DNA of 18,161 nucleotides from Candidatus Cloacimonadota bacterium (GCA_014382495.1 JACNJR010000031.1:1-18161), one strand, 5' to 3'. Shown: positions 1,302-16,369, numbered from the stretch's first letter. Translations and numbers: made by a program. Notes: generated by a model not told the origin, from the letters alone.

Positions 1302-1749
1302 TTTCGCTCACTTTCAATTTTGTCTCGATAAGTTCTTTGTGATTTAATCTCAATAAATTCGAAATTTTGTGAATAAGATGGTCTTCATAAGCATCTAATC
1401 TATCGTCAGAATAAATAATTTTCCACGCATTTTCCAATATTTTCATCTTTTCTTCTTTTGTGGAATTTTGATTTATCAGATTAGTAAATTGCCAAATATC
1501 AATGCTTTCATCAATTTTCTTTTCAGAAATTTTGATTAGTTCAGTTGAATCTTTTTCAGATAAATTAAATTCCGCTTTCATAATTTTGATGATATTTTTC
1601 CGTTCGATTTCCAAAAATTCATTATCTGCATTTGCGATTTCTAAAAGAATTACGCAGGTTGCAATTTGTGATTTTCTTTCCAAATTCTCTTCTGAATTTT
1701 CCTCTTTTTCTGAAAATTCTTTTCCAAAAATCTTTTTAAAATTAATCAT
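1285..1749 (-). CDS. TerB-like (tellurite-resistance TerB / DjlA N-terminal-like) domain protein
   Basis: 154 aa, with two helical repeats matching the TerB pattern (ATCVILLEIANADNEFLEIERKNIIKIM ... EKMKILENAWKIIYSDDRLDAYEDHLIHKISNLLRL). The ATG overlaps the stop of the upstream LhgO-like gene in an ATGA arrangement (1746-1749). Confidence 0.55.
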   Translation of the reverse strand: MINFKKIFGKEFSEKEENSEENLERKSQIATCVILLEIANADNEFLEIERKNIIKIMKAEFNLSEKDSTELIKISEKKIDESIDIWQFTNLINQNSTKEEKMKILENAWKIIYSDDRLDAYEDHLIHKISNLLRLNHKELIETKLKVSENEKRD

Positions 1750-2846
1750 TCAATTATTTTCTCCACATATTCGGCAATTGATAAACAGCAAGTCAATCCA
1801 GGCGATTCGATTCCGATAAGATTTATGAAATTTGGGAAACCTTTATTCTTCTCATTTGAGATAACAAAATCCCGGAATTTCTCACCTTCTTTTTGCAATT
1901 TTGCCCTGATTCCACAATCGTCTTGACTGATATCATCAAAATCAATCTCAAGAAAATTTTTCACAGATTCATAAAATTCTTGATGATACGAATCATCCAT
2001 TTGGTAATCGATTTTGTCAACATAATATGCATTTGGACCGAATGAAAGTTCGCCATTCAAATTTATTCTTGTATGAATTCCGAGAAAGATTCCTTTCGGG
2101 TCCGGAACTGGATATACAAGGTGTTTGATATCTTTATATTTTGTTGTTTTGTAATATTCGCCCTTACAAAAAAGAAGTTTATAGTCATTTTTTTCAGAAT
2201 TTATTCCGACCATTTCTGAAATTTTATCGCTCCATAATCCAGCACAATTTATCAAGATTTTTGTTTTTACTTGAAAATCATCACTTTTAAATGATAAAAT
2301 ATATTCATCATCTTGCTTTTGAATAGCGGAAATTTCTGTATTATATGAAATCAAAACTCCATTTTGTTCTGACAAAAATTCCAGTTTTTTCATAACTTTA
2401 TGAGTATCCATAATTCCGGTTGATGGCACGAATAATGCGCCGCAGGATTTGAAAAGTGGTTCTATCTCTTTTGCTTTTTTTGATGAGATTATTTCAAGAT
2501 TTTTCACTCCATTTGAAATTCCATTTTGATACAATTCATCAAGAATTGGAAGTTCGTTTTTCTGAATCGCAATGATTAATTTTCCACATTTTTTATATGG
2601 CAAATTATTTTTCTCCAAAAAATTGTATAGCAATTCGTTTCCTTTAACGCACAATTTTGCTTTCAATGTATTTTTTGGATAATAAATTCCGGAATGAATT
2701 ACTTCACTATTTCTGCTAGAAATATGGCGTCCGAACGAATCTTCTTTTTCGACAAGAAGAATATTGTCGAAAGAATGAGACAATTTTTCAGCAACGGAAA
2801 GTCCAACTATTCCTGCCCCAACAATGACTACATCTACTTCTTCCAT
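1746..2846 (-). CDS. lhgO: FAD-dependent oxidoreductase, L-2-hydroxyglutarate oxidase/dehydrogenase (LhgO/YgaF) family
   Basis: 366 aa. N-terminal dinucleotide fold VDVVIVGAGIVGLSVA; VIHSGIYYPKNTLKAKLCVKGN closely parallels E. coli LhgO VIHAGVYYTPGSLKAQFCLAGN; C-terminal GIESPGLT motif. AGAGGT Shine-Dalgarno before the ATG at 2846. Starts 2 nt after the miaB stop. Confidence 0.8.
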   Translation of the reverse strand: MEEVDVVIVGAGIVGLSVAEKLSHSFDNILLVEKEDSFGRHISSRNSEVIHSGIYYPKNTLKAKLCVKGNELLYNFLEKNNLPYKKCGKLIIAIQKNELPILDELYQNGISNGVKNLEIISSKKAKEIEPLFKSCGALFVPSTGIMDTHKVMKKLEFLSEQNGVLISYNTEISAIQKQDDEYILSFKSDDFQVKTKILINCAGLWSDKISEMVGINSEKNDYKLLFCKGEYYKTTKYKDIKHLVYPVPDPKGIFLGIHTRINLNGELSFGPNAYYVDKIDYQMDDSYHQEFYESVKNFLEIDFDDISQDDCGIRAKLQKEGEKFRDFVISNEKNKGFPNFINLIGIESPGLTCCLSIAEYVEKIIE

Positions 2847-7959: not shown

Positions 7960-8217
7960 TTAATCTTCTTTTACAAGATAAACTATATCGTGCTCACGGA
8001 CATGCTCTTTAACTTTCACTCCGATGGAATCACCGATTTTTGCACTTTCAATCGAATCCTCTTCAATATGAATTGATTTCACCTTTTGTGTAAAATCTGT
8101 TGTATGCCCTTTGATATGGATTGTATCGCCGACATTAAGTTCACCCTTTGTGATGTCAATTCCAGCAACTGAAATGTGACCCCAAAAATGGATAATTTTT
8201 CCTATCTCTTTCTCCAT
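7960..8217 (-). CDS. Small stand-alone beta-barrel protein resembling translation-factor domain 2 (EF-Tu/IF2/SelB domain-2-like)
   Basis: 85 aa. GKIIHFWGHISVAGIDITKGELNVGDTIHIKG ... IGDSIGVKVKEHVREHDIV follows the G-x-V-x-x-G-x-I-x-x-G-D pattern of EF-Tu domain 2 barrels. GGAGA Shine-Dalgarno before the ATG at 8217. Confidence 0.4.
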   Translation of the reverse strand: MEKEIGKIIHFWGHISVAGIDITKGELNVGDTIHIKGHTTDFTQKVKSIHIEEDSIESAKIGDSIGVKVKEHVREHDIVYLVKED

Positions 8218-8266: not shown

Positions 8267-9061
8267 TTATTTGGTTTTGGTCTTTTCTTTAATAACTGAT
8301 TTGATTAATTCGGTTGGAATTTTGCCTTTCTTCATAAATGATTTTACAAGATCAATTGGGATTGGGAAAACAATAGTTGAATTCTTTTCTGAAGCAATTT
8401 CAGTAAGAGTTTGCAAGAATCTGAGTTGAATTGAAGTTGTATTTTTGCTCAGCACTTCAGCGGCTTTTGCAAGTTTTGTGGATGCTTGGAATTCTCCCTC
8501 TGCATGAATAATTTTTGCTCTTCTCTCTCGTTCTGCTTCTGCCTGTTTTGCCATTGCTCGTTGCATTGTTGCCGGAAGTTCAACATCTTTTACTTCAACA
8601 ATACTCACCTTGATACCCCACGGATCGGTTCGCTCATCAATAACCTCTTGCAATTCCTGACTAATCTTCTCTCTATGCGAAAGAAGGTCATCAAGTTCGG
8701 ATTTTCCGAGAATATTTCGCAAAGTCGTCTGGGCAATTTGTGAAGTTGCTTGATAGTAATTTTCAACTTTTACAACTGCATCTTCCGGATTAAGAATACG
8801 AAAATAGACCACTGCATTGACTTTTACAGGCACATTATCACTTGTAATAATATCCTGAGGTGGCACATCCATCGTGACAGTTCGCAATTCAACTTTTACC
8901 ATTTTATCAATAAACGGAATGAGGAGAAATAATCCAGGACCTTTTGCGCGCAATAATCTTCCAAGACGAAATATCACGCCTCTTTCATATTCTCGCACAA
9001 TTCTGATTGCTTTGGAAAGAAATATTAAAGCCAAAATTATGACAATAATTGTTACATTCAT
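8267..9061 (-). CDS. SPFH/band-7 (stomatin/prohibitin-like) membrane protein
   Basis: 264 aa. N-terminal transmembrane helix ([14 protein letters not shown]), then the band-7 core [16 protein letters not shown] ... [24 protein letters not shown], and a C-terminal Ala/Glu/Arg coiled coil ([22 protein letters not shown]). GGAGGT Shine-Dalgarno before the ATG at 9061. Confidence 0.9.
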
Positions 9062-9147: not shown

Positions 9148-10158
9148 TTATCCAATTTTCTTTTTGGTATATTTTATCAATTTTTCAATTAAATCTTTTG
9201 ACCTGATTCCTTCTGCTTCTGCTGCGAAATTGAGTAAAATTCTATGTTGCAAAATCGGATTTGCGACAAACTCAACATCTTCAATTGTCGGAGTATATCT
9301 GCCATAAAGTGCGGCTCGAGTTTTTGATGCCAGAATAAGATATTGTGAAGCTCGCGGTCCAGAACCCCAATTTACCCATTTTTTCACAAAATCTGGCGCG
9401 TTTTTTTCATTTGGTCTGGAAATCCGCGCAAGATTCACAGCAAAATTAATGATATGTTCCGAGACAGGAATTTTGAATATGAATTTCTGAAGTTTAGTGA
9501 TTTCATCTCCAGCAATCACATTATTTATTTCAGGAAATTCCTGACTTGTGGTGAATTCTGCAATCTGCTTCTCCTCTTCAAAACTTGGATAATCAATATC
9601 GATATGAAAGATAAATCTATCTAATTGTGCTTCTGGAAGTGGATATGTGCCTTCCTGCTCAATCGGATTTTGAGTTGCAAGCACGAAGAATGGCGGCTCA
9701 AGTTTGAAGGTATTATTTCCAGCCGTAACTTCCCTTTCTTGCATTGCCTGAAGGAGCGCTGATTGAGTTTTGGGCGGAGTTCTATTTATTTCATCTGCTA
9801 AAATTATATTCGCAAAAATCGGTCCTTTCACAAATTCAAAAACTCGCTTTCCCGTTGTTTTATCTTCTGCCAAAATATCTGTGCCAGTGATATCTGAAGG
9901 CATCAAATCTGGTGTGAACTGGATTCTGCTAAATTTCAAATTGAGAACTTTTGAGATTGTGCTGATAAGTAAAGTTTTTGCCAATCCGGGAACTCCAACG
10001 AGAAGGCAATGTCCGTTTGCGAATAGAGAGATTAAAAAATATTCAATTACTTTATCTTGTCCGATAATTACTCTTCCAATTTCGTTCACAATTTTTTCTC
10101 GAATTATGCTGAGATTTTTGACCGTTTTTGCATCGTTCTTATCAATAATTTCTTTCAT
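9148..10158 (-). CDS. MoxR-family AAA+ ATPase
   Basis: 336 aa. Walker A GVPGLAKT, Walker B ILADEINR, and MoxR-typical VLATQNP and PLPEAQLDRF segments. Length and architecture match the MoxR/RavA-like AAA subfamily. Confidence 0.9.
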   Translation of the reverse strand: MKEIIDKNDAKTVKNLSIIREKIVNEIGRVIIGQDKVIEYFLISLFANGHCLLVGVPGLAKTLLISTISKVLNLKFSRIQFTPDLMPSDITGTDILAEDKTTGKRVFEFVKGPIFANIILADEINRTPPKTQSALLQAMQEREVTAGNNTFKLEPPFFVLATQNPIEQEGTYPLPEAQLDRFIFHIDIDYPSFEEEKQIAEFTTSQEFPEINNVIAGDEITKLQKFIFKIPVSEHIINFAVNLARISRPNEKNAPDFVKKWVNWGSGPRASQYLILASKTRAALYGRYTPTIEDVEFVANPILQHRILLNFAAEAEGIRSKDLIEKLIKYTKKKIG

Positions 10159-10196: not shown

Positions 10197-11210
10197 TCAA
10201 TTTTTATATTTTTCACTTTCAGATATATTTACATTTCTGAAAGTATCTACTACTTTTACGCCGATATAACTAAAACTGAACAGACCGATTGCGGTTATCA
10301 TAATTCCTGTCAATAAATGCGCAAAACCGACGACGGCGCTGACAAGTTCTCGATTCAAACCGAGTCCAACTGAAAAAATAATCAGCATAATAAGTTCATT
10401 GCTGCCGATCTGCGCTGGCGGACAGGGAATGATGTAAGAGAGGTAAATCAAAGTATATCCAAACAAGATTATTGGAAATGTCAAATTTTCTCCGAACGCC
10501 TTGAATATGAGAAGAAAATATAATGCATCGATTAGAACAGCGCCAAAAGTCAGCAAAATTACTACTGGCAAAATTCTTGAATGATGCTTGAACAATCCGA
10601 TTCCCTCGACAAAATTTTCGATAATTTCAAAAAATTTTATCTCATATTTTTCTGGAATGAAAAAGAGAATTTTATGAAATAATTTCACTACAAATTTTTT
10701 ATTTATGGCAGTCAAAACAAGGATTCCTAATCCGAAAAGGACAACAGCAAGAAGGAGTATGATGAGAATTAGAAGCGGTTTAGCGATATTAGGTTGGAGA
10801 ATTGGAATCAAAATTATCACGACAAAAATCGAAAGTGAATCGAAGACCTTATCGATAAAAACTGACGGAAGCGTTTTCGATATTGCTTTTCCATTAGTTC
10901 GTTTAATAAAATAACTTTTGGCAAATTCCCCTGCGCGAATCGGAATGATATAATTCATAAAAAATCCCGCCATCCAAATTAAATACGCTTTTTTTATCGA
11001 TAAATTGCAAACAGGTTTCAGAATTATTCGCCATCGAATCGAACGGATAAAGTATGAAAATAGATATAAAACAGATGCAATTAGAACATAAACGAAATTT
11101 AATTTTCTGAAATAATCTGCTACCTCTTTTACATTTATGAATTTTATCCAAACGAGCAGAAGGATAATTCCCAATAAAATTCCGATGATTATTTTCTTTT
11201 TATCTGACAT
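10197..11210 (-). CDS. Integral membrane protein of the lysylphosphatidylglycerol-synthase transmembrane/flippase-like domain family (UPF0104, MprF N-terminal-like)
   Basis: 337 aa, about 8 hydrophobic helices. The N-terminal helix followed by FRSIRWRIIL and the overall pattern resemble the LPG-synthase TM domain. No catalytic (aminoacyl-transferase or glycosyltransferase) domain is attached. Confidence 0.65.
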   Translation of the reverse strand: MSDKKKIIIGILLGIILLLVWIKFINVKEVADYFRKLNFVYVLIASVLYLFSYFIRSIRWRIILKPVCNLSIKKAYLIWMAGFFMNYIIPIRAGEFAKSYFIKRTNGKAISKTLPSVFIDKVFDSLSIFVVIILIPILQPNIAKPLLILIILLLAVVLFGLGILVLTAINKKFVVKLFHKILFFIPEKYEIKFFEIIENFVEGIGLFKHHSRILPVVILLTFGAVLIDALYFLLIFKAFGENLTFPIILFGYTLIYLSYIIPCPPAQIGSNELIMLIIFSVGLGLNRELVSAVVGFAHLLTGIMITAIGLFSFSYIGVKVVDTFRNVNISESEKYKN

Positions 11211-11216
11211 TTTTGT

Positions 11217-12059
11217 TTATGTTTTAGTAAAAATCATATATTTATGATGTGCACAGAAGAATTTGATAAAATTAGGAGCAATTTTTTCAAACCAGTAATA
11301 TTTCATCATTCTGTTGGAAAAATCGGAATCTTTATTTGTATAATAATCTAAAATGCATAATTTTTCTTCATTTTTCTCTCTTTTGAGTTTTAACAGAAAA
11401 TCGAGGTGAAAAATTTTAAGAAACTCTCGCTTGTTCATTCCAATATCTGGCCATGGTGGACAGTCAATATAATTTCTCTCTACAAGTTTCCAATTCAAGT
11501 TTTTCATCTCTTTTATTATATTTTTTGGAACAATATTATCCTCTTTCAATTCTTTTTTCAATTCATTTCCAGAAATATATTTTTGGGAAATGTAGCCAAA
11601 TCCAAAACGATTGGGCACACAAATCCAAATCACCTTTTTCGTCACGCGTGTTAACTCTTTCAAAAATATTTCTAAACTATTCACGAACCAAAGAGCTGAA
11701 AAATTCCAACTTATATCAAAGCAATTATCTTCAAAGTTTAATTTTTGAAAATTTTCTTGAAAATAAAAATTAGTTTTTAATCCACAATTTTTCCATACAG
11801 AACGCACCATTTCTAATCGCTGTTTGTCATTATCAATCAGAGTAGCGGAAATGCCAGATTTTGCAACTGCTATAGAATTTATTCCGGTGATTCCCGTAAA
11901 ACCGAAGATTGGAACTTCTAATAGAGTTTCACACTTGTATTTTTTGATAATTTCTCGCAATTTGTTGTTCAAAATGATTCTTTCGTAACTTGAACCAAGT
12001 CCTTCATTTGGTTCTTCGGAGAAATAATTTTGCCAATTTTTCAAAATTGGAATTGCCAT
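11217..12059 (-). CDS. Putative class I SAM-dependent methyltransferase-like protein
   Basis: 280 aa. Possible motif I (LLEVPIFGFTGITGINSIAVAKSG), an acidic end of strand beta2 (ATLIDND), and motif IV-like FDISWNFSALWF. Weak call from pattern only. Starts 2 nt after the upstream gene's stop. Confidence 0.4.
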   Translation of the reverse strand: MAIPILKNWQNYFSEEPNEGLGSSYERIILNNKLREIIKKYKCETLLEVPIFGFTGITGINSIAVAKSGISATLIDNDKQRLEMVRSVWKNCGLKTNFYFQENFQKLNFEDNCFDISWNFSALWFVNSLEIFLKELTRVTKKVIWICVPNRFGFGYISQKYISGNELKKELKEDNIVPKNIIKEMKNLNWKLVERNYIDCPPWPDIGMNKREFLKIFHLDFLLKLKREKNEEKLCILDYYTNKDSDFSNRMMKYYWFEKIAPNFIKFFCAHHKYMIFTKT

Positions 12060-12061
12060 AA

Positions 12062-13042
12062 TTATCTGTCTGTTTTTTTATACCATTCTAAAACATACTT
12101 GAAATTCGGAATTGTGTTGTGCGATGTGATTTTTAAATCTTTTTCTGCTTGTGAAACATCATAATACCAACTTCTGGAAATCAGTTGTATGCGTGCAAAC
12201 CATAATTCATTCTTGATAATTTTTGAAAAAATAAATTCCAATACTCTAAACAGAAATGTCGGAATTTTTTTCCATTTTGGATAATTCTCACTTTTCAATT
12301 CAATATTAATGAAATTTGTTAATTTTTCTAATGAGACAGGAATTTTATCCGAAATATTGTAAGCATTTCCAGATTTGAGATTTTCATTTGCTGCATTTAT
12401 AAACGCAGAAGTCAGTGTTTCAACATCAATCATATTTATTTTAATATCTTGAGACGGACGTATCATCAGACCGTTATCAACCAAATTTATCAATTTGTAT
12501 GGAAATCCATAATCGCCTTTTCCATAAGTAATTGACGGACGAATGATGATAAGATTTAGCCCATTTTTGACTAATTTTTGAAGTTCGTTCTCTGCTTCGA
12601 TTTTAGTAAAATGATAGTAATTATCAGGTTTTCGGTTTGTGTTTTCATTTGGTGGAAGTTCATTTGGAATTGCGCCAAAAACCCCGACGGAACTGCAGAA
12701 AATCATTTTGCAATTATGTTTCAAACATTGTTCAGCAATATATTTTGTGGCATTTACATTTGTATCGTAATAATCTTTTTTAGAAAAATTTCTTCCTCCG
12801 CGAAGTGCTGCAATATGAAAAACAATATCAAATCTGATCTCACTAAAAATCTTTTCTATAAAATTTTGTGAATTCAGCTCGCCAAATTTACAAATTACTC
12901 CTTTGCTTTCAAATTTCTCATACCTTTCGACTTTCGTTTTCTCTCTAATTATCGCAACAATCCTATCATTTTTCTCTTCCAATAATTTTCTGCAAATGTG
13001 TCCGCCAATAAAACCTGTAATACCTGTGATTAAAATATTCAT
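12062..13042 (-). CDS. NAD-dependent epimerase/dehydratase (extended SDR family)
   Basis: 326 aa. N-terminal Rossmann motif ILITGITGFIGGHICRKL and the catalytic YxxxK (YHFTK). The length is typical of the UDP-sugar epimerase/dehydratase/reductase family. Confidence 0.85.
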   Translation of the reverse strand: MNILITGITGFIGGHICRKLLEEKNDRIVAIIREKTKVERYEKFESKGVICKFGELNSQNFIEKIFSEIRFDIVFHIAALRGGRNFSKKDYYDTNVNATKYIAEQCLKHNCKMIFCSSVGVFGAIPNELPPNENTNRKPDNYYHFTKIEAENELQKLVKNGLNLIIIRPSITYGKGDYGFPYKLINLVDNGLMIRPSQDIKINMIDVETLTSAFINAANENLKSGNAYNISDKIPVSLEKLTNFINIELKSENYPKWKKIPTFLFRVLEFIFSKIIKNELWFARIQLISRSWYYDVSQAEKDLKITSHNTIPNFKYVLEWYKKTDR

Positions 13043-13068: not shown

Positions 13069-13860
13069 TTACGAAAAAAAGTTTTTCACTCTTTCTAAAA
13101 ATGAGGTTTTATATTTTTTTTCTTGATAAATCTGTCTGAAGATATTTTCAAATGGCTCGTTATTAATAACCTTTTTGGGATTTTCATACATTAACAATTC
13201 AGCCAAATTTTCAGAATATTTTTCACTCAAATATTGATATGCAGCATCCATCAAAATGGGGCGTTTAGCCAGATTGTGAACATCCGAGGCGACAAAATGT
13301 ATGCATCCCACTTCCAACATTTTATGCGTCAGTACTTGAATTTTTTCACCATAATCTCCCAACAAACAACCGCAATTTGTCTGAATAAGAATGCCGCGAT
13401 TTGCAATATCAAGCAGAAAATCAAAATTATTTATAAATTGAAAATATCGCTCTGCATGCGCTAAAATTGGGATAAAATCTTCAAATTGAAATTCGAAAAG
13501 TGTCTCAAAGAAATTATTTGGAAATCTCTGCAAATCGGATTCTACCAAAATATATGAACTGCCTGCTAATGATAATTTTTCTCTTTTTACTTTTTCAATA
13601 AGATTTGGTTCAAAATATATTTCTGCACCTTTATGGATTTTTATTTGCAATTTGTTTTTGACGATTTTTGCGGATAATTCATCAAATTTTTCATCAATGG
13701 TTTTTCGATTATTGTCATAAGAACCGGAAATTATATGCGGAGTTACAATCACTTCTTTTACGCCTTGATTTATTAATTCATTAAGAATTTCAAAACTTTG
13801 CTCAAAATTTTCAGCACCATCATCTAATCCCGGCAAAATGTGCGAATGAATATCAATCAT
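13069..13860 (-). CDS. CpsB/CapC-type PHP-domain phosphoesterase (Mn-dependent protein-tyrosine phosphatase family, YwqE-like)
   Basis: 263 aa. The diagnostic N-terminus MIDIHSHILPGLDDGA and additional His clusters (VTPHII, ILAHAERY, ASDVHN) are typical of the PHP fold. ATG 13860-13858 lies 2 nt after the GGGPS stop. Confidence 0.85.
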   Translation of the reverse strand: MIDIHSHILPGLDDGAENFEQSFEILNELINQGVKEVIVTPHIISGSYDNNRKTIDEKFDELSAKIVKNKLQIKIHKGAEIYFEPNLIEKVKREKLSLAGSSYILVESDLQRFPNNFFETLFEFQFEDFIPILAHAERYFQFINNFDFLLDIANRGILIQTNCGCLLGDYGEKIQVLTHKMLEVGCIHFVASDVHNLAKRPILMDAAYQYLSEKYSENLAELLMYENPKKVINNEPFENIFRQIYQEKKYKTSFLERVKNFFS

Positions 13861-13862
13861 TT

Positions 13863-14618
13863 TTATCCTTTATGAATTGCGTCTGCAAAATTTTGGATTA
13901 GATTTTTATCGGGATTTTTTTCAAACGCGTGCCCTATCACGACAAAATCTGCTCCAGCATTTACCTTTTTTCTGGCATCATCTGGAGTTTTTATACCGCC
14001 GCCAACAATCAGCGGAATGTCCATATTTTTTTTCACAGCATCAATCATATTAACTGGGATAGACATTTTTGCTCCACTTCCTGCATCCATAAAAACAATT
14101 TTCATTCCAAGATATTGAGCGGCAAGAATGTGTGCAATTGCAATGTCATTTTTATCTCTTGGAATTGGAGTGCTGTTGCTCATATATTGAACGGAAGTTA
14201 GCGAACCAGATTCGATGATAAGATAGCCCGTTGGGATTGTTTCAACTTGCAGTTTTTTTATTAACGGAGCTGCTCTAACTTGCTCTCCAATAAGCAATTG
14301 CGGATTTCTGCTGCTTAATAAACTCATAAATAAAATTGCATCGGCGTGCGGAGAGCCCAAACTAAATATTCCCGGAAAGATGATTATAGGAATTTTTATC
14401 TGTTTTTTGATAGCAATTACAGTGGAATCGAAATCGTTTTTCAGCATAATACTTCCGCCAACGAAAATCGCATCAGCACCCGATTTTTCACAATCTTTGG
14501 CAAGCTCGGCAGATTGTTGTAAATCCTGTTTATCGGAATCTATCAAGCAGAAAAACCCAGCTTTTTTTCTGCGAATTACTTCCAACAAATAATTGTAAAT
14601 TTTATTATTTTTTACCAC
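13863..14618 (-). CDS. (Geranyl)geranylglyceryl-phosphate synthase, PcrB/GGGPS family TIM-barrel prenyltransferase
   Basis: 251 aa and collinear with B. subtilis PcrB and archaeal GGGPS: GADAIFVGGS, IIIFPG, KIVFMDAGSGA, IPLIVGGGIKT, ADFVVIGHAFE. Start is GTG (14618-14616), preceded by GTAGGAGAA. Confidence 0.8.
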   Translation of the reverse strand: MVKNNKIYNYLLEVIRRKKAGFFCLIDSDKQDLQQSAELAKDCEKSGADAIFVGGSIMLKNDFDSTVIAIKKQIKIPIIIFPGIFSLGSPHADAILFMSLLSSRNPQLLIGEQVRAAPLIKKLQVETIPTGYLIIESGSLTSVQYMSNSTPIPRDKNDIAIAHILAAQYLGMKIVFMDAGSGAKMSIPVNMIDAVKKNMDIPLIVGGGIKTPDDARKKVNAGADFVVIGHAFEKNPDKNLIQNFADAIHKG

Positions 14619-14639: not shown

Positions 14640-15482
14640 TCAAAAATATTGTGAAAACCAAAGCACAAGCAAGATTACAAACATATTGACTTTCATCATT
14701 TTTGAAGAAAAAGACGCTTTTTTTTTACTGAATTTCAGAAATAAATTTGATAGATTTATCGGAATAAAAAAGCCGACGAGCAGAATCAAAATTGCAAAAA
14801 CCGAAATTTCATAAAACCTTTCGTATCCAAAAATTGTCAAGATTGTAAGAAAAATCCAGAATAAAAATAGTAAAACGAAGGTAACATTTTTCCCGAAAAT
14901 TATCGGAATTGTTTTCGCATTATTTTTTTTATCGCCTTTAATATCTTCCAAATCCTTCACAATTTCACGAATAATCGTAAAAACAAATGCACAAAAAAAT
15001 ATGAAATATGAATTCGCGATATTTTCATTTGCCAATCCGCCGTAAAGGAATGCGGAAGCCGTAAAAAATGATACTAAAATATTGTCGAGAAATGTCAGTT
15101 TTTTCGCTTTATATGCGTAAATCCAAAGAAGAATTGAATTGCAAGAAGCGAGTAAAATCATCCAAAGATTTTTGAAGATGAAACTAATAATTATTCCGAA
15201 AATAAACATCAAAATTGCAAAATTTTTTGCAGATATTGGAGAAATTTTTCCGGAAGGTATTGCTCTTTTTGGTTTATTTATTTTGTCGATTTCAATATCA
15301 AAAAAATCGTTGATTACATATCCGGCAGCTGCTATAAATGATGCAGAAAGTGCGGCTAAAACAGGGAAAATCAAATTTGAAAAATCAAAATTTGTCTTCC
15401 AATAAGCTCCGAAAAGAACAGATATTGCGACAAAAAAAATATTAAAAGGTCTGGTAATTTTGAAGTACGAAATCAAACTCAC
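14640..15482 (-). CDS. UbiA-superfamily prenyltransferase, most consistent with digeranylgeranylglyceryl-phosphate synthase (DGGGPS-like)
   Basis: 280 aa, about 8-9 TM helices. First Asp-rich motif NDFFDIEIDKINKPKRAIPSG (NDxxDxxxD) and a second acidic patch REIVKDLEDIKGD. The short length and N-terminal FKITRPFN match DGGGPS rather than the longer quinone enzymes UbiA and MenA. GTG start (15482-15480) overlaps the upstream TAG by 1 nt. The DGGGPS assignment rests partly on adjacency to GGGPS. Confidence 0.7.
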   Translation of the reverse strand: MSLISYFKITRPFNIFFVAISVLFGAYWKTNFDFSNLIFPVLAALSASFIAAAGYVINDFFDIEIDKINKPKRAIPSGKISPISAKNFAILMFIFGIIISFIFKNLWMILLASCNSILLWIYAYKAKKLTFLDNILVSFFTASAFLYGGLANENIANSYFIFFCAFVFTIIREIVKDLEDIKGDKKNNAKTIPIIFGKNVTFVLLFLFWIFLTILTIFGYERFYEISVFAILILLVGFFIPINLSNLFLKFSKKKASFSSKMMKVNMFVILLVLWFSQYF

Positions 15483-16369
15483 TACGGCACTCTATCCTGA
15501 ATCGTATCCAGAAAATTTAGTAACATGCTATTATTCGGAATATATTTTATGATATTTCTCGCATCGTGAATGAGTTTTAGTGCTTGCTTTTTCGACTCTT
15601 CAATTCCGAGCAAAACGGGATATGTAACCCGATTATTTTTGCTATCTTCGCCAGTTTCCTTTTCCAATAAATCATCTGCACCAATTTCGTCAAGAATATC
15701 GTCAATTACTTGATATGCCAAGCCGACATTTAGTGCGAAATCGCTCAAAGCGCTGGTAGTTTGCTCATTTGCGTTTGCAACAACACATGCCATTTCTTCA
15801 GCGGCTCGGAGAAGTGCGCCTGTTTTTTTTAGATGAATATCTCGCAAAACATGCAATTTTACTCTTCTTTTCGTAGAAAGCAATTCCACAACTTGTCCGC
15901 CAATCATCCCGCGAGTTGACGCTGATTGAAGAAGAATCTCGAGACAATCCAGCGAATGTTTTCTTTTTTTCATTTTCAAAATAGTTTCAAATGACTTGGT
16001 TATCAACGCATCGCCAGCTAAAATTGCAATCGCATTTCCAAATTTTTTGTGACAACTTGGCTTTCCTCTTCTCACATTTGCATCGTCCATAAATGGCAAA
16101 TCGTCGTGAATCAACGATGCTGTATGAATCATCTCGATGGCGCAGGCAAGTGGCATTATTTTTTGAATTCGGCGCGTGTCTCGACGCTTGATGAGCATTT
16201 CATAAGTTGCAATTAGAAGTAATGGGCGAAGTCGTTTTCCGCCAGCAAAAATCGAATATCTCATCGCTTCGTGAATTTTTTGTGGATATTTGCTTTTTGG
16301 CGATAAGTATTTATTGAGCGCTTTTTCAATTAACTTTTTTCTGCTATCAAAATATCTTTCTAAAATCAA
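15482..16369 (-). CDS. Short-chain polyprenyl diphosphate synthase, probably geranylgeranyl diphosphate synthase (type II, FARM with 2-residue insertion)
   Basis: 295 aa. FARM IHTASLIHDDLPFMDD and SARM YQVIDDILD. Ala and Ser occupy the -5 and -4 positions before the FARM, where C15-limited FPP synthases such as E. coli IspA carry an aromatic residue. This chain-length rule predicts a C20 or longer product. Start is TTG (16369-16367), preceded by GGAGG; an in-frame TAA at 16387-16385 closes the frame upstream. Confidence 0.88.
   Translation of the reverse strand: MILERYFDSRKKLIEKALNKYLSPKSKYPQKIHEAMRYSIFAGGKRLRPLLLIATYEMLIKRRDTRRIQKIMPLACAIEMIHTASLIHDDLPFMDDANVRRGKPSCHKKFGNAIAILAGDALITKSFETILKMKKRKHSLDCLEILLQSASTRGMIGGQVVELLSTKRRVKLHVLRDIHLKKTGALLRAAEEMACVVANANEQTTSALSDFALNVGLAYQVIDDILDEIGADDLLEKETGEDSKNNRVTYPVLLGIEESKKQALKLIHDARNIIKYIPNNSMLLNFLDTIQDRVP

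What the first reader, a model, noticed from the sequence alone, without database searches (positions are those of the whole stretch)
10197..13042. Tail of the lipid operon encodes a candidate headgroup tailoring and translocation set (SDR epimerase, SAM-methyltransferase-like protein, MprF-type flippase-domain protein)
Continuing co-directionally from the phosphatase, with gaps of 26, 2 and 6 nt, are an NAD-dependent epimerase/dehydratase, a putative class I methyltransferase and a stand-alone LPG-synthase-type transmembrane domain. In MprF that domain flips modified lipid across the membrane; here it has no attached synthase domain. The arrangement suggests polar-headgroup modification and flipping of the ether lipids made upstream. 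I know of no characterised pathway linking these families to GGGPS/DGGGPS products. It is equally possible they modify ordinary bacterial lipids or a glycan.
Basis: inference. Interest (0 to 1): 0.6.

Follow-up and report, generated by a model that had tools for sequence, protein, structure and literature searches.

The report
Portable lipid tailoring and flipping cassette
Three real, tightly packed genes (a reductase-type SDR, an unusual methyltransferase and a stand-alone MprF-type flippase-like membrane protein) end a phylum-wide Cloacimonadota isoprenoid-lipid operon, but the same cassette also occurs without the archaeal-type ether-lipid genes, so it is a portable module for finishing and flipping an isoprenoid-anchored lipid, not a dedicated archaeal-lipid headgroup pathway.

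Summary
Window 13042-10197 (minus strand) carries an extended SDR (326 aa), a divergent class I methyltransferase (280 aa) and a stand-alone LPG_synthase_TM/PplT protein (337 aa). The gaps are 26, 2 and 6 nt. Upstream lie a polyprenyl synthase, a DGGGPS-like UbiA, PcrB/GGGPS and a CpsB-type PHP phosphatase.

Of 53 fully flanked genome loci, nearly all Cloacimonadota, 32 keep the whole order GGPPS-UbiA-PcrB-CpsB-SDR-MT-PplT-MoxR. These include MAGs whose GGGPS/DGGGPS were characterised by Villanueva et al.

- SDR and MT form an obligate pair. They are adjacent wherever upstream sequence exists and are fused into one protein in at least six clusters.
- The cassette is separable from the ether-lipid genes. 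Some clusters lack UbiA/PcrB, some loci carry SDR-MT alone, and in NIOZ-UU3 an opposite-strand gene splits the cassette from the lipid genes.
- Close orthologues (MT 54-55% identical) sit in glycosylation-type loci without GGGPS. Others sit beside a different UbiA subfamily, a polyprenyl synthase and a geranylgeranyl-reductase-like gene.

My best reading is a portable cassette that tailors and then translocates an isoprenoid-anchored polar lipid. The chemistry is unresolved. It is a new variant of a known kind, of moderate interest.

The parts
12062..13042 (-). Extended SDR oxidoreductase, 326 aa (HpnA/OleD/3beta-HSD-like; probably NADP(H)-dependent); obligate partner of the methyltransferase
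   Evidence: PF01370 at 105 bits and PF01073 at 85 bits. Best NCBIfam hits are HpnA (91 bits) and OleD-type reductase (85 bits), both far below their cut-offs. TGxxGxxG, S117/S118, Y143 and K147 are at least 95% conserved in 78 sequences, and Arg33 is conserved after beta-2. The gene lies directly upstream of the MT gene in every genome locus that has upstream sequence. It is fused to the MT in P0245, P0265, P0291, P0322, P0341 and P0361.
11217..12059 (-). Divergent class I SAM-methyltransferase-fold protein, 280 aa, of a small uncharacterised family
   Evidence: PF08241 at 40 bits. The family has only 293 representative clusters at E<=1e-3 among 1.84 billion proteins. Family motifs are EGLG[ST]xYER, LExPxxGxTGxxGINS, DLxWNF, VPN, DxPPWPD and WAHHxY. 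The AlphaFold model has pLDDT 85.9. Its best PDB fold matches are all SAM methyltransferases, such as RebM, C6-FPP MT, TleD and BezA, at TM about 0.5.
10197..11210 (-). Stand-alone MprF-type flippase-like (PplT / UPF0104 / LPG_synthase_TM) membrane protein, 337 aa
   Evidence: PF03706 at 156 bits, full length; TIGR00374 at 131 bits. The model has pLDDT 86.7 and is all-helical. The top five PDB matches are all MprF structures (TMq 0.51-0.56), and every non-MprF match has TMq of 0.31 or less. A 100% identical protein is named 'flippase-like domain-containing protein [Candidatus Cloacimonetes bacterium]'.
13069..13860 (-). CpsB/CapC-type PHP metal-dependent phosphatase, 263 aa; the junction gene between the lipid cassette and the trio
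   Evidence: PF19567 at 204 bits. It lies between PcrB (or the polyprenyl synthase) and the SDR in 43 of 53 fully flanked loci. It stays with the polyprenyl synthase/UbiA/PcrB side when the cluster is split (L168; L009).
13863..14618 (-). PcrB-family GGGP synthase, 251 aa
   Evidence: PF01884 at 157 bits; NF003198 at 299 bits (above cut-off 247); TIGR01769 at 218 bits.
14640..15482 (-). UbiA-family prenyltransferase, DGGGPS-like, 280 aa
   Evidence: PF01040 at 131 bits. The best NCBIfam hits are geranylgeranylglycerol-phosphate geranylgeranyltransferase models (192 bits, below cut-off).
15482..16369 (-). Short-chain trans-polyprenyl diphosphate synthase (FPP/GGPP type), 295 aa; first gene of the string
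   Evidence: PF00348 at 202 bits; NF045485 at 306 bits, above its cut-off. A GGAGG Shine-Dalgarno sequence and a TTGACA-containing AT-rich 174-nt intergenic region lie upstream, next to a divergent MFS gene.
9148..10158 (-). MoxR-type AAA+ ATPase, co-conserved immediately downstream of the flippase-like gene
   Evidence: PF07726 at 209 bits. It follows the PplT gene (or the MT gene where PplT is absent) in most Cloacimonadota loci and in L004, L171 and L018.

Best explanation
The three genes form a self-contained, portable cassette. It finishes an isoprenoid-anchored polar membrane lipid on the cytoplasmic face and moves it to the outer leaflet.

Proposed steps:
1. Lipid anchor supply. The upstream genes provide it: a short-chain polyprenyl-PP synthase, then PcrB/GGGPS and the DGGGPS-like UbiA. 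The orthologous pair from Cloacimonadota MAGs makes unsaturated archaeol-type lipid in E. coli (literature).
2. Dephosphorylation. The PHP phosphatase removes a phosphate and exposes a hydroxyl (inferred). There is precedent: PcrB and DGGGPS products are dephosphorylated before O-acetylation by YvoF.
3. Tailoring. The SDR and the methyltransferase act as one two-enzyme unit on a hydroxylated polar group, either the glycerol or a sugar. The SDR carries out NADP(H)-dependent oxidoreduction of an alcohol or carbonyl, and the MT adds a methyl group from SAM. The coupling is shown by invariant adjacency and by gene fusions. The chemistry is inferred.
4. Translocation. The PplT protein flips the finished lipid (inferred from MprF).

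The cassette is not specific for archaeal-type diethers. In other lineages the same SDR-MT(-DUF362)-PplT unit serves polyprenyl-phosphate-dependent glycosylation loci, or a different UbiA/polyprenyl-synthase/GG-reductase glycolipid cluster. The common denominator is an isoprenoid-linked substrate.
For: Phylum-wide synteny: 32 of 53 fully flanked loci have GGPPS-UbiA-PcrB-CpsB-SDR(-SDR)-MT-PplT-MoxR, although MT identity falls to 45%. This set includes NIOZ-UU2 and NIOZ-UU3 (L019, L009), MAGs from the study that demonstrated the GGGPS/DGGGPS activity (PMC7852524).

SDR-MT coupling: the two genes are adjacent in all loci with upstream sequence. At least six fused SDR-MT architectures exist.

MT-PplT coupling across phyla: L131/L135, L147/L165, L167, L172 and L010.

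Independent association with isoprenoid genes outside Cloacimonadota. L048 (Calditrichota) has SDR-MT-GT2-GT2-PMT_2-polyprenyl synthase-?-UbiA. L170 has rSAM-SPASM, an SDR-MT fusion, GT2, polyprenyl synthase, GT2, UbiA, a GG-reductase-family gene and a Wzx-type flippase.

Lipid-carrier glycosylation context elsewhere: GT2, GT-C (TMEM260 or PMT_2-like), Bac_transf, ManC and multi-TM proteins.

Enzyme competence: the SDR catalytic triad is intact and its nearest models are lipid-acting SDRs (HpnA, OleD, SdmB). The PplT fold matches MprF only. Published predictions hold that stand-alone UPF0104/PplT proteins are lipid or lipid-linked-glycan flippases (PMC5898192; 10.1101/2022.03.11.483950). Dephosphorylation followed by capping of ether lipids has precedent (PMC9179154).
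Against: No activity of any of the three proteins has been measured. The MT family has no characterised member, and its glycine-rich loop is atypical. The window and the typical Cloacimonadota cluster contain no glycosyltransferase, so if the polar group is a sugar its donor enzyme is encoded elsewhere. If the polar group is the glycerol, no known chemistry needs both an SDR and an MT. Flippase activity is established only for the TM domain of MprF. For stand-alone homologues (YbhN, HpnL, the AglD C-terminus) it is inferred. MoxR, which is probably unrelated, is conserved just as strongly, so part of the synteny may be inherited order and not functional coupling.
Confidence: 0.45

Rival explanations
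1. Nucleotide-sugar and glycan pathway. SDR and MT modify a soluble NDP-sugar, for example by reducing a keto-sugar and then O- or C-methylating it. PplT flips a polyprenyl-phosphate-linked sugar for LPS, capsule or protein glycosylation. The link to the lipid cassette is only a shared need for the polyprenyl synthase, or inherited gene order.
For: Close orthologues sit among GT2 genes, NDP-sugar SDRs (Epimerase/GDP_Man_Dehyd, Polysacc_synt_2), ManC, Bac_transf, GT-C enzymes and a sulfotransferase. An MT-GT2 fusion exists (P0387). The best PDB sequence matches of the SDR are nucleotide-sugar enzymes (Pal, GalE). Makarova et al. assign UPF0104 to glycosylation pathways.
Against: No glycosyltransferase, nucleotidyltransferase or 4,6-dehydratase lies in the window or in the common Cloacimonadota cluster. 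An NADP(H)-type reductase would need a keto-sugar supplied by some other enzyme. The position between a PHP phosphatase and a lipid flippase-like protein is kept across the phylum. The association with UbiA and polyprenyl synthase recurs in three lineages.
Confidence: 0.25
2. The trio is a dedicated headgroup-tailoring and flipping pathway for the GGGPS/DGGGPS (archaeal-type diether) products. It replaces the missing archaeal headgroup enzymes.
For: PcrB lies in the same string in 38 of 53 fully flanked loci and UbiA in 32. The intergenic gaps are very short and no terminator is predicted. CarS is absent from these bacteria, so the headgroup route is open. Ether-lipid dephosphorylation followed by capping has precedent.
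Against: Seven or more clusters keep polyprenyl synthase-CpsB-SDR-MT-PplT-MoxR with no UbiA or PcrB inside (L062, L066, L074, L084, L085, L171, L173). Six complete or large Cloacimonadales contigs carry SDR-MT alone. In L010 the trio sits next to Mur ligase and FemAB genes. L172 and L131-L135 carry the trio in glycan loci. None of 80 loci of more distant MT homologues has PcrB, UbiA or CpsB nearby. A search with a Cloacimonadales PcrB found PcrB on the chromosomes that have it in the cluster. This is suggestive only.
Confidence: 0.15
3. No common pathway. PplT is a housekeeping phospholipid translocator like E. coli YbhN. SDR-MT does an unrelated job. The string is a conserved but functionally mixed superoperon, as the co-conserved MoxR suggests.
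For: MoxR AAA+, SPFH and MetRS genes follow without terminators. E. coli PplT/YbhN appears to be a general factor of phospholipid metabolism. PplT is missing from some clusters (PcrB-CpsB-SDR-MT-MoxR in L020, L021, L030 and L046).
Against: The MT-PplT neighbourhood recurs in at least five unrelated lineages with different surrounding genes. That is hard to explain without functional coupling. The interval between CpsB and PplT behaves like a variable tailoring region, gaining an extra SDR, an extra MT or DUF362.
Confidence: 0.1

Closest known systems
MprF N-terminal flippase domain and the stand-alone PplT/UPF0104 proteins (E. coli YbhN, HpnL, the AglD C-terminal domain)
   Same: Same Pfam family, with a full-length PF03706 match. 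Same predicted fold: only MprF structures match. It stands alone, like YbhN and HpnL. It is encoded next to lipid-synthetic or tailoring genes, as ybhN is next to clsB, hpnL next to hopanoid genes and AglD next to glycosylation genes.
   Different: It has no aminoacyl-PG synthase domain and no glycosyltransferase domain. Its partners here (SDR, this MT family, DUF362, PHP phosphatase, GGGPS/DGGGPS) are not among those described for the family. It reaches only the general TIGR00374 model, and the HpnL model did not hit.
Three-component lipid-carrier modification systems (ArnC/ArnD/ArnEF/ArnT, GtrA/GtrB/GtrV, and Haloferax Agl with AglP methylation of a dolichol-phosphate-linked sugar)
   Same: The logic is the same: build or tailor a polar group on an isoprenoid lipid at the cytoplasmic face, flip it, and use it outside. 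Related loci (L001, L048, L169, L172, L132) do contain the GT2 and GT-C components beside SDR-MT and PplT.
   Different: The window and the common Cloacimonadota cluster lack both the GT2 and the GT-C enzymes. The flippase is of a different family (PplT, not GtrA, ArnEF or Wzx). The comparison with AglP and Arn rests on my own knowledge of those systems and was not tested here.
Bacillus PcrB-phosphatase-YvoF route and halobacterial acetyl-archaeol (dephosphorylation, then capping of ether lipids)
   Same: In both, a GGGPS-family product is dephosphorylated and its free hydroxyl is then modified by a tailoring enzyme (PMC9179154). Here a phosphatase gene sits directly after PcrB, followed by tailoring genes.
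   Different: Capping here would be by methylation and oxidoreduction, not by acetyl-CoA-dependent O-acetylation. No YvoF homologue is present. A flippase-like protein is part of this set.
Hopanoid-associated HpnA (SDR) / HpnB (GT2) / HpnL (UPF0104) genes
   Same: An extended SDR of the same broad subfamily (the best NCBIfam hit of the window SDR and of the L135 SDR is HpnA) is paired with a UPF0104 membrane protein next to isoprenoid-lipid biosynthesis genes. The functions of HpnA and HpnL are also unknown.
   Different: Scores are far below the HpnA cut-off (91 against 368 bits). There is no squalene-hopene cyclase and no GT2. A partner methyltransferase is not part of the hpn set.

Membership tests
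MprF-type flippase domain / PplT (PF03706, TIGR00374) | Full-length match to the family profile above the curated cut-off | tested here: met
   PF03706 at 156.4 bits (cut-off 33.4), covering profile positions 1-302 of 302. TIGR00374 at 131.4 bits (cut-off 43.2).
MprF-type flippase domain / PplT (PF03706, TIGR00374) | Predicted fold superposes on the TM (flippase) domain of solved MprF structures | tested here: met
   The model has pLDDT 86.7. The Foldseek PDB top five are 7f47, 9goe, 9j8s, 6lvf and 7duw, all MprF, with probability 1.00 and TMq 0.51-0.56. The E-values are weak (0.04-0.2). Non-MprF hits have TMq of 0.31 or less.
MprF (bifunctional aminoacyl-PG synthase/flippase) | C-terminal aminoacyl-phosphatidylglycerol synthase domain (PF09924/DUF2156) | tested here: not met
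   The protein is 337 aa and PF03706 is its only domain. It is therefore a stand-alone PplT and not MprF.
MprF-type flippase domain / PplT | Lipid translocation activity | not testable with these tools
   This needs reconstitution or in vivo leaflet assays.
Extended SDR (NAD(P)-dependent epimerase/dehydratase, PF01370) | TGxxGxxG dinucleotide-binding motif and the Ser/Thr-Tyr-Lys catalytic residues | tested here: met
   T6-G7-x-x-G10-x-x-G13, S117/S118 and Y143-x-x-x-K147 are at least 95% conserved in 78 aligned sequences. PF01370 scores 105 bits.
HpnA hopanoid-associated sugar epimerase (TIGR03466); GalE (TIGR01179) | Score above the curated equivalog cut-off | tested here: not met
   HpnA scores 91.4 bits against a cut-off of 367.7. 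GalE scores 71.4 against 262.3. The protein is not a member of either family, and HpnA is only the nearest model.
Class I SAM-dependent methyltransferase | Profile match and a Rossmann-like MT fold | tested here: met
   PF08241 scores 40.1 bits (cut-off 21.2). The model has pLDDT 85.9 with alternating beta/alpha elements. All 50 listed PDB fold matches are SAM-MT-fold proteins with probability 1.0, though TM is only about 0.5.
Class I SAM-dependent methyltransferase | Canonical motif I (E/DxGxGxG) and an acidic residue after beta-2 that binds the SAM ribose | tested here: inconclusive
   The glycine-rich loop is atypical (LEVPIFGFTGITGINS; G53, G56 and G59 invariant). The acidic residue D76 is nearly invariant. 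SAM binding itself was not tested.
Lipid-carrier glycosylation systems (Arn/Gtr/Agl type) | GT2 polyprenyl-phosphate glycosyltransferase and a GT-C transferase encoded with the flippase | tested here: not met
   Neither is present in the window or in the common Cloacimonadota cluster. Both are present in the related loci L001, L048, L169, L172 and L132.
Archaeal ether-phospholipid headgroup pathway | CDP-archaeol synthase (CarS) and CDP-alcohol phosphatidyltransferases next to GGGPS/DGGGPS | tested here: not met
   No such family was found among the window ORFs. CarS is reported absent from Cloacimonetes MAGs (PMC7852524).

The most novel reading that the evidence does not exclude
The Cloacimonadota operon does not stop at phospho-archaeol. 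The PHP phosphatase dephosphorylates GGGP or DGGGP. The SDR-MT unit then remodels the freed glycerol end, for example by transient oxidation to a carbonyl followed by C- or O-methylation. That would give a methoxy-archaeol-like or butanetriol-type backbone. The PplT protein would then be the first flippase assigned to an archaeal-type ether lipid. This would define a new class of bacterial isoprenoid ether lipid and a new enzyme pair for backbone methylation.
Probability: 0.12. Interest if true: 0.8.

Novelty: new variant of a known kind. Interest (0 to 1): 0.5.

Why it matters
Cloacimonadota are the main example of bacteria with a working archaeal-type GGGPS/DGGGPS pair. The end products of that pathway in the native organism are unknown. 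It has been assumed that promiscuous bacterial CdsA/PgsA/Pgp enzymes make PG-archaeol.

A PHP phosphatase, an obligate SDR-methyltransferase pair and a flippase-like protein are kept right behind these genes across the phylum. That predicts a different or additional fate: a dephosphorylated, tailored and exported lipid. It also gives concrete mass shifts to look for in Black Sea and digester lipidomes.

Independently of that question, the work defines an uncharacterised methyltransferase family that always travels with an SDR and is sometimes fused to it. The pair often travels with a PplT protein, a DUF362 Fe-S protein or a radical-SAM/SPASM protein. This offers a handle on the unknown substrates of stand-alone MprF-type flippase-like proteins.

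Tried and rejected
- The genome scan with a 42-sequence MT alignment failed because no block was conserved enough. I repeated it with 15 sequences. The 80 loci returned were saturated by Cloacimonadota, so I used the metagenome scan with distant MTs to see other lineages.
- I tried to test whether cluster variants without PcrB lack it genome-wide. A Cloacimonadales PcrB query listed the chromosomes that carry PcrB in the cluster (contig lengths 3893010, 3678422, 3963599). It listed none of those lacking it there (3102113, 4378784, 1505725, 3296030, 2988751, 3075096, 2879990, 2895421). The list stops at 323 bits, so this is suggestive only. No further genome scans were available.
- The listing of cluster members gave no taxonomy for the distant MT homologues.
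- A PDB sequence search with the MT gave only marginal hits. The MT fold search gave generic class I MTs at TM about 0.5, so no substrate class can be read from it.
- I considered the SDR as the missing G1P dehydrogenase, since egsA/araM are absent. I rejected this: orthologues are fused to the MT and occur in loci and glycan clusters without PcrB.
- I considered a DprE2-like role in a DPA-type pathway (UbiA phosphoribosyltransferase, phosphatase, epimerase). I rejected it for the window, because the UbiA scores 192 bits on DGGGPS models against about 25-30 bits on decaprenyl-phosphate phosphoribosyltransferase models.
- HpnA and HpnL membership: the SDR scores far below the HpnA cut-off and the HpnL model gave no hit.
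- The promoter and terminator scans were uninformative, with counts at the level of shuffled sequence.
- Villanueva et al. 2021 do not mention an operon, phosphatase, epimerase, methyltransferase or flippase. I found no paper describing this cassette.


Full report
**Observation**

The window (GC 0.33) carries one long minus-strand gene string. Pfam and NCBIfam identify the genes, in order of transcription, as follows:
- 16369-15482: a short-chain polyprenyl diphosphate synthase
- 15482-14640: a UbiA prenyltransferase whose best models are DGGGP synthases
- 14618-13863: PcrB/GGGP synthase, above the NF003198 and TIGR01769 cut-offs
- 13860-13069: a CpsB/CapC-type PHP phosphatase
- 13042-12062: an extended SDR (PF01370, 105 bits)
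- 12059-11217: a class I methyltransferase-fold protein (PF08241, 40 bits)
- 11210-10197: a full-length LPG_synthase_TM protein (PF03706, 156 bits; TIGR00374, 131 bits)
- then a MoxR AAA+ ATPase, an SPFH protein, a small ORF and MetRS

No terminator-like site lies on the minus strand inside the string, and promoter-like hits do not exceed the shuffled expectation. A 100% identical flippase-like protein and a 99% identical MT come from Cloacimonadota MAG contigs of about 62 kb.

**Conservation inside Cloacimonadota**

A genome scan with an MT alignment found 280 relatives and returned the best 80 loci, almost all Cloacimonadota. I mapped the window proteins onto these loci with phmmer. Of the 53 loci with full flanks on both sides:
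- 32 have GGPPS-UbiA-PcrB-CpsB-SDR(-SDR)-MT-PplT-MoxR.
- 5 have GGPPS-CpsB-SDR-MT-PplT-MoxR, with no UbiA or PcrB in the cluster.
- 4 have PcrB-CpsB-SDR-MT-MoxR, without PplT.
- 2 have PcrB-CpsB-SDR-MT-PplT-MoxR.
- 6 have SDR-MT alone.
- 2 (Calditrichota L048 and L060) have SDR-MT with a polyprenyl synthase 5 kb downstream.
- 2 (L010, L081) have SDR-MT-PplT(-MoxR) without the cassette.

The set includes NIOZ-UU2 (L019) and NIOZ-UU3 (L009), MAGs from the study in which Cloacimonetes GGGPS and DGGGPS were shown to make ether lipids (PMC7852524). That paper does not mention the downstream genes.

In NIOZ-UU3 an opposite-strand gene for a T9SS cargo protein lies between CpsB and the SDR. In L168 the SDR-PplT part and the GGPPS-UbiA-PcrB-CpsB part are convergent. 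The CpsB|SDR junction is therefore a natural break point. The string consists of two sub-modules that are usually, but not always, joined.

**SDR and MT are one unit**

The SDR gene lies directly upstream of the MT gene in every genome locus with upstream sequence.

An exhaustive HMMER search shows the MT family is small: 293 representative clusters at E<=1e-3 among 1.84 billion proteins. The hits include proteins of 570-660 aa that Pfam resolves as an N-terminal Epimerase/SDR domain joined to this MT at the C-terminus (P0245, P0265, P0291, P0322, P0341, P0361). Fusions of MT with GT2 (P0387) and MT with DUF362 (P0329) also exist.

The family has its own conserved motifs: EGLG[ST]xYER, LExPxxGxTGxxGINS, DLxWNF, VPN, DxPPWPD and WAHHxY. 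Its model is confident (pLDDT 85.9). It matches only generic class I methyltransferases at TM about 0.5, including sugar O-MTs and prenyl-diphosphate C-MTs, so the fold does not reveal the substrate.

The SDR keeps TGxxGxxG and the Ser-Tyr-Lys residues in 78 sequences. It has a conserved Arg33, and no acidic residue, after beta-strand 2. By the usual SDR cofactor rule this points to NADP(H) and a reductase or dehydrogenase, not a GalE-type epimerase (inference). Its nearest curated models are lipid-acting SDRs (HpnA, OleD, SdmB), all far below cut-off.

**The flippase-like protein**

The match to PF03706 is full-length, and no synthase domain is attached. The AlphaFold model (pLDDT 86.7) matches only MprF structures in the PDB (top five hits, TMq 0.51-0.56).

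Stand-alone members of this family are already known to be widespread. They have been proposed to act as phospholipid or lipid-linked-glycan flippases (Makarova et al. 2015, PMC5898192; Hauser et al. preprint; the HpnL discussion). Activity has been shown only for MprF itself.

**Contexts outside the common cluster**

These contexts decide how the trio should be read.

1. Close orthologues in glycan-type loci.
   - L172 (GC 0.47; SDR 44%, MT 55%, PplT 26% identical) reads TPR, GT2, rSAM-SPASM, GT2, two NDP-sugar-type SDRs, SDR, MT, DUF362, PplT, GT2, sulfotransferase.
   - L001 (a 10-Mb contig; MT 54%) reads GT2, GT2, TMEM260-type GT-C, SDR, MT, PMT_2-like membrane protein, GT2.
2. Human-gut low-GC contigs (L131/L132/L135) read Bac_transf, ManC, GT2, GT2, rSAM-SPASM, SDR, MT, PplT and an 8-TM protein.
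3. Distant MT homologues (80 metagenome loci). None has PcrB, UbiA, polyprenyl synthase or CpsB nearby. The recurrent neighbours are rSAM-SPASM (28 loci), SDR (24), GT2 (16), a 7-TM 615-aa protein (11), TMEM260-like GT-C, ArsA and a phosphodiesterase. The fusion P0265 also sits among PMT_2, GT2, rSAM-SPASM and further MT genes.
4. The cassette moves as a block inside the phylum. L010 (SDR 64%, MT 60%, PplT 65% identical) has SDR-MT-DUF362/Fer4-PplT next to FemAB and Mur-ligase genes.
5. Isoprenoid genes reappear in two other lineages, with a different prenyltransferase.
   - L048 (Calditrichota) has SDR-MT-GT2-GT2-PMT_2-polyprenyl synthase-?-UbiA.
   - L170 has rSAM-SPASM, the SDR-MT fusion P0245, GT2, polyprenyl synthase, GT2, UbiA, a geranylgeranyl-reductase-family flavoprotein and a Wzx-type flippase.
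   - The two UbiA proteins are 33% identical to each other and are not DGGGPS-like.
6. Clusters of the form polyprenyl synthase-CpsB-SDR-MT-PplT-MoxR, without UbiA or PcrB, occur in seven or more loci (L062, L066, L074, L084, L085, L171, L173).
7. In one Cloacimonadales lineage the SDR-MT pair stands alone (L002/L032). A related 3.1-Mb Cloacimonadales chromosome (L004, reached through a PplT cluster that also lists L002's 3.3-Mb contig) carries GGPPS-CpsB-SDR'-PplT-MoxR, with a different SDR.

**Interpretation**

The trio is therefore not a dedicated archaeal-lipid headgroup pathway.

The phylum-wide embedding behind the polyprenyl synthase, GGGPS, DGGGPS and phosphatase is nonetheless too consistent to dismiss. 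So is the independent recurrence of polyprenyl synthase and UbiA genes beside SDR-MT in Calditrichota and in L170.

The reading that fits all contexts is a portable cassette. It tailors a hydroxylated polar group carried on an isoprenoid lipid (SDR plus MT, sometimes with or replaced by DUF362 or rSAM-SPASM redox partners). It then translocates the product (PplT, or Wzx in L170).

In this window the anchor would come from the upstream genes. The PHP phosphatase would expose the hydroxyl, as happens with PcrB and DGGGPS products before YvoF acetylation (PMC9179154).

What is shown: gene reality, family and fold assignments, SDR-MT coupling, portability of the cassette, and the context statistics. 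What is inferred: every catalytic step, the substrate, and flipping. I put 0.45 on this reading, 0.25 on a soluble NDP-sugar or glycan role, 0.15 on the ether-lipid-specific reading and 0.10 on no common pathway.

**Comparison with known systems and novelty**

The cassette works like the Arn/Gtr/Agl logic of tailoring on a lipid and then flipping. It also resembles the PcrB-phosphatase-YvoF route. It is not a member of either: GT2, GT-C and YvoF are absent.

PplT is a bona fide member of PF03706 but is not MprF. The SDR is neither HpnA nor GalE. The MT belongs to an uncharacterised family.

I found no paper describing this gene set. I rate it a new variant of a known kind, with interest 0.5. 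It gives a testable prediction about the native end product of the bacterial 'archaeal-lipid' pathway, and it provides an entry point to the substrates of stand-alone MprF-type flippase-like proteins. The evidence is purely comparative and the chemistry remains open.

Noticed in passing
window 9148-10158 (-); L004, L005, L011-L085, L171: A MoxR-type AAA+ ATPase (AAA_3) follows the flippase-like gene in most Cloacimonadota loci. Where PplT is missing, it follows the MT gene. It is conserved as strongly as the trio. It is often followed by an unannotated gene of about 310 aa. Whether it belongs to the same function is unknown.
   Followed up: partly
L010 10785-11960; L172 9858-10985; L167 6863-7984; L166 8881-9996; protein P0329: A DUF362 Fe-S protein, often carrying a 4Fe-4S dicluster domain, recurs between the MT and the PplT gene or directly upstream of PplT. 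In P0329 it is fused to this MT family. In some loci it takes the place of the SDR, as if it were an alternative redox partner.
   Followed up: partly
L170 548-9957; L048 8984-18811: An uncharacterised cluster type occurs in two non-Cloacimonadota lineages. It holds SDR-MT (fused in L170), GT2 genes, a short-chain polyprenyl synthase, a distinct UbiA subfamily (33% identical between the two loci, not DGGGPS-like), a geranylgeranyl-reductase-family gene, and Wzx or a PMT_2-type GT-C. It looks like a pathway for an unknown isoprenoid glycolipid.
   Followed up: partly
L009 6330-8360 (-), NIOZ-UU3 contig JACNJG010000035.1; L168 9046-12849: Genes for large T9SS-sorted surface proteins (dockerin, cohesin, Por_Secre_tail) are inserted exactly at the boundary between the lipid cassette and the SDR-MT-PplT part. 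They split the string into two transcription units in these MAGs.
   Followed up: yes
L005 11050-14367; L010 13004-15678; L168 3124-6440: A DUF6754 protein (about 370 aa) and three unannotated ORFs (about 231, 280 and 213 aa) form a conserved block next to the PplT gene in the window's closest relatives. The block is absent from the window itself.
   Followed up: no
metagenome loci L088-L165 (cluster c1, for example L100 84-1172): A radical-SAM/SPASM protein of about 360 aa is the most frequent neighbour of distant members of the MT family (28 of 80 loci). It is usually accompanied by an SDR and a GT2. Its nearest curated models are all far below cut-off.
   Followed up: partly
L033, L067, L069, L017, L059 (between CpsB and PplT): The interval between the phosphatase and the flippase-like gene varies. 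Some genomes carry two different SDR genes before the MT. L059 carries a second, ordinary Methyltransf_11/23 gene after it. This is typical of a tailoring region.
   Followed up: partly
window 8267-9061 and 7960-8217 (-): An SPFH/Band 7 protein is followed by an 85-aa ORF with weak similarity to EF-Tu domain 2 (an OB-like barrel). This may be an NfeD-type partner of the SPFH protein.
   Followed up: no
window 1746-2846 (-): A DAO-family FAD oxidoreductase (366 aa) lies downstream in the same orientation. Enzymes of this family include glycerol-3-phosphate and 2-hydroxyglutarate oxidoreductases. The source of glycerol phosphate for GGGPS in these bacteria is unresolved: egsA/araM are absent according to PMC7852524.
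   Followed up: no
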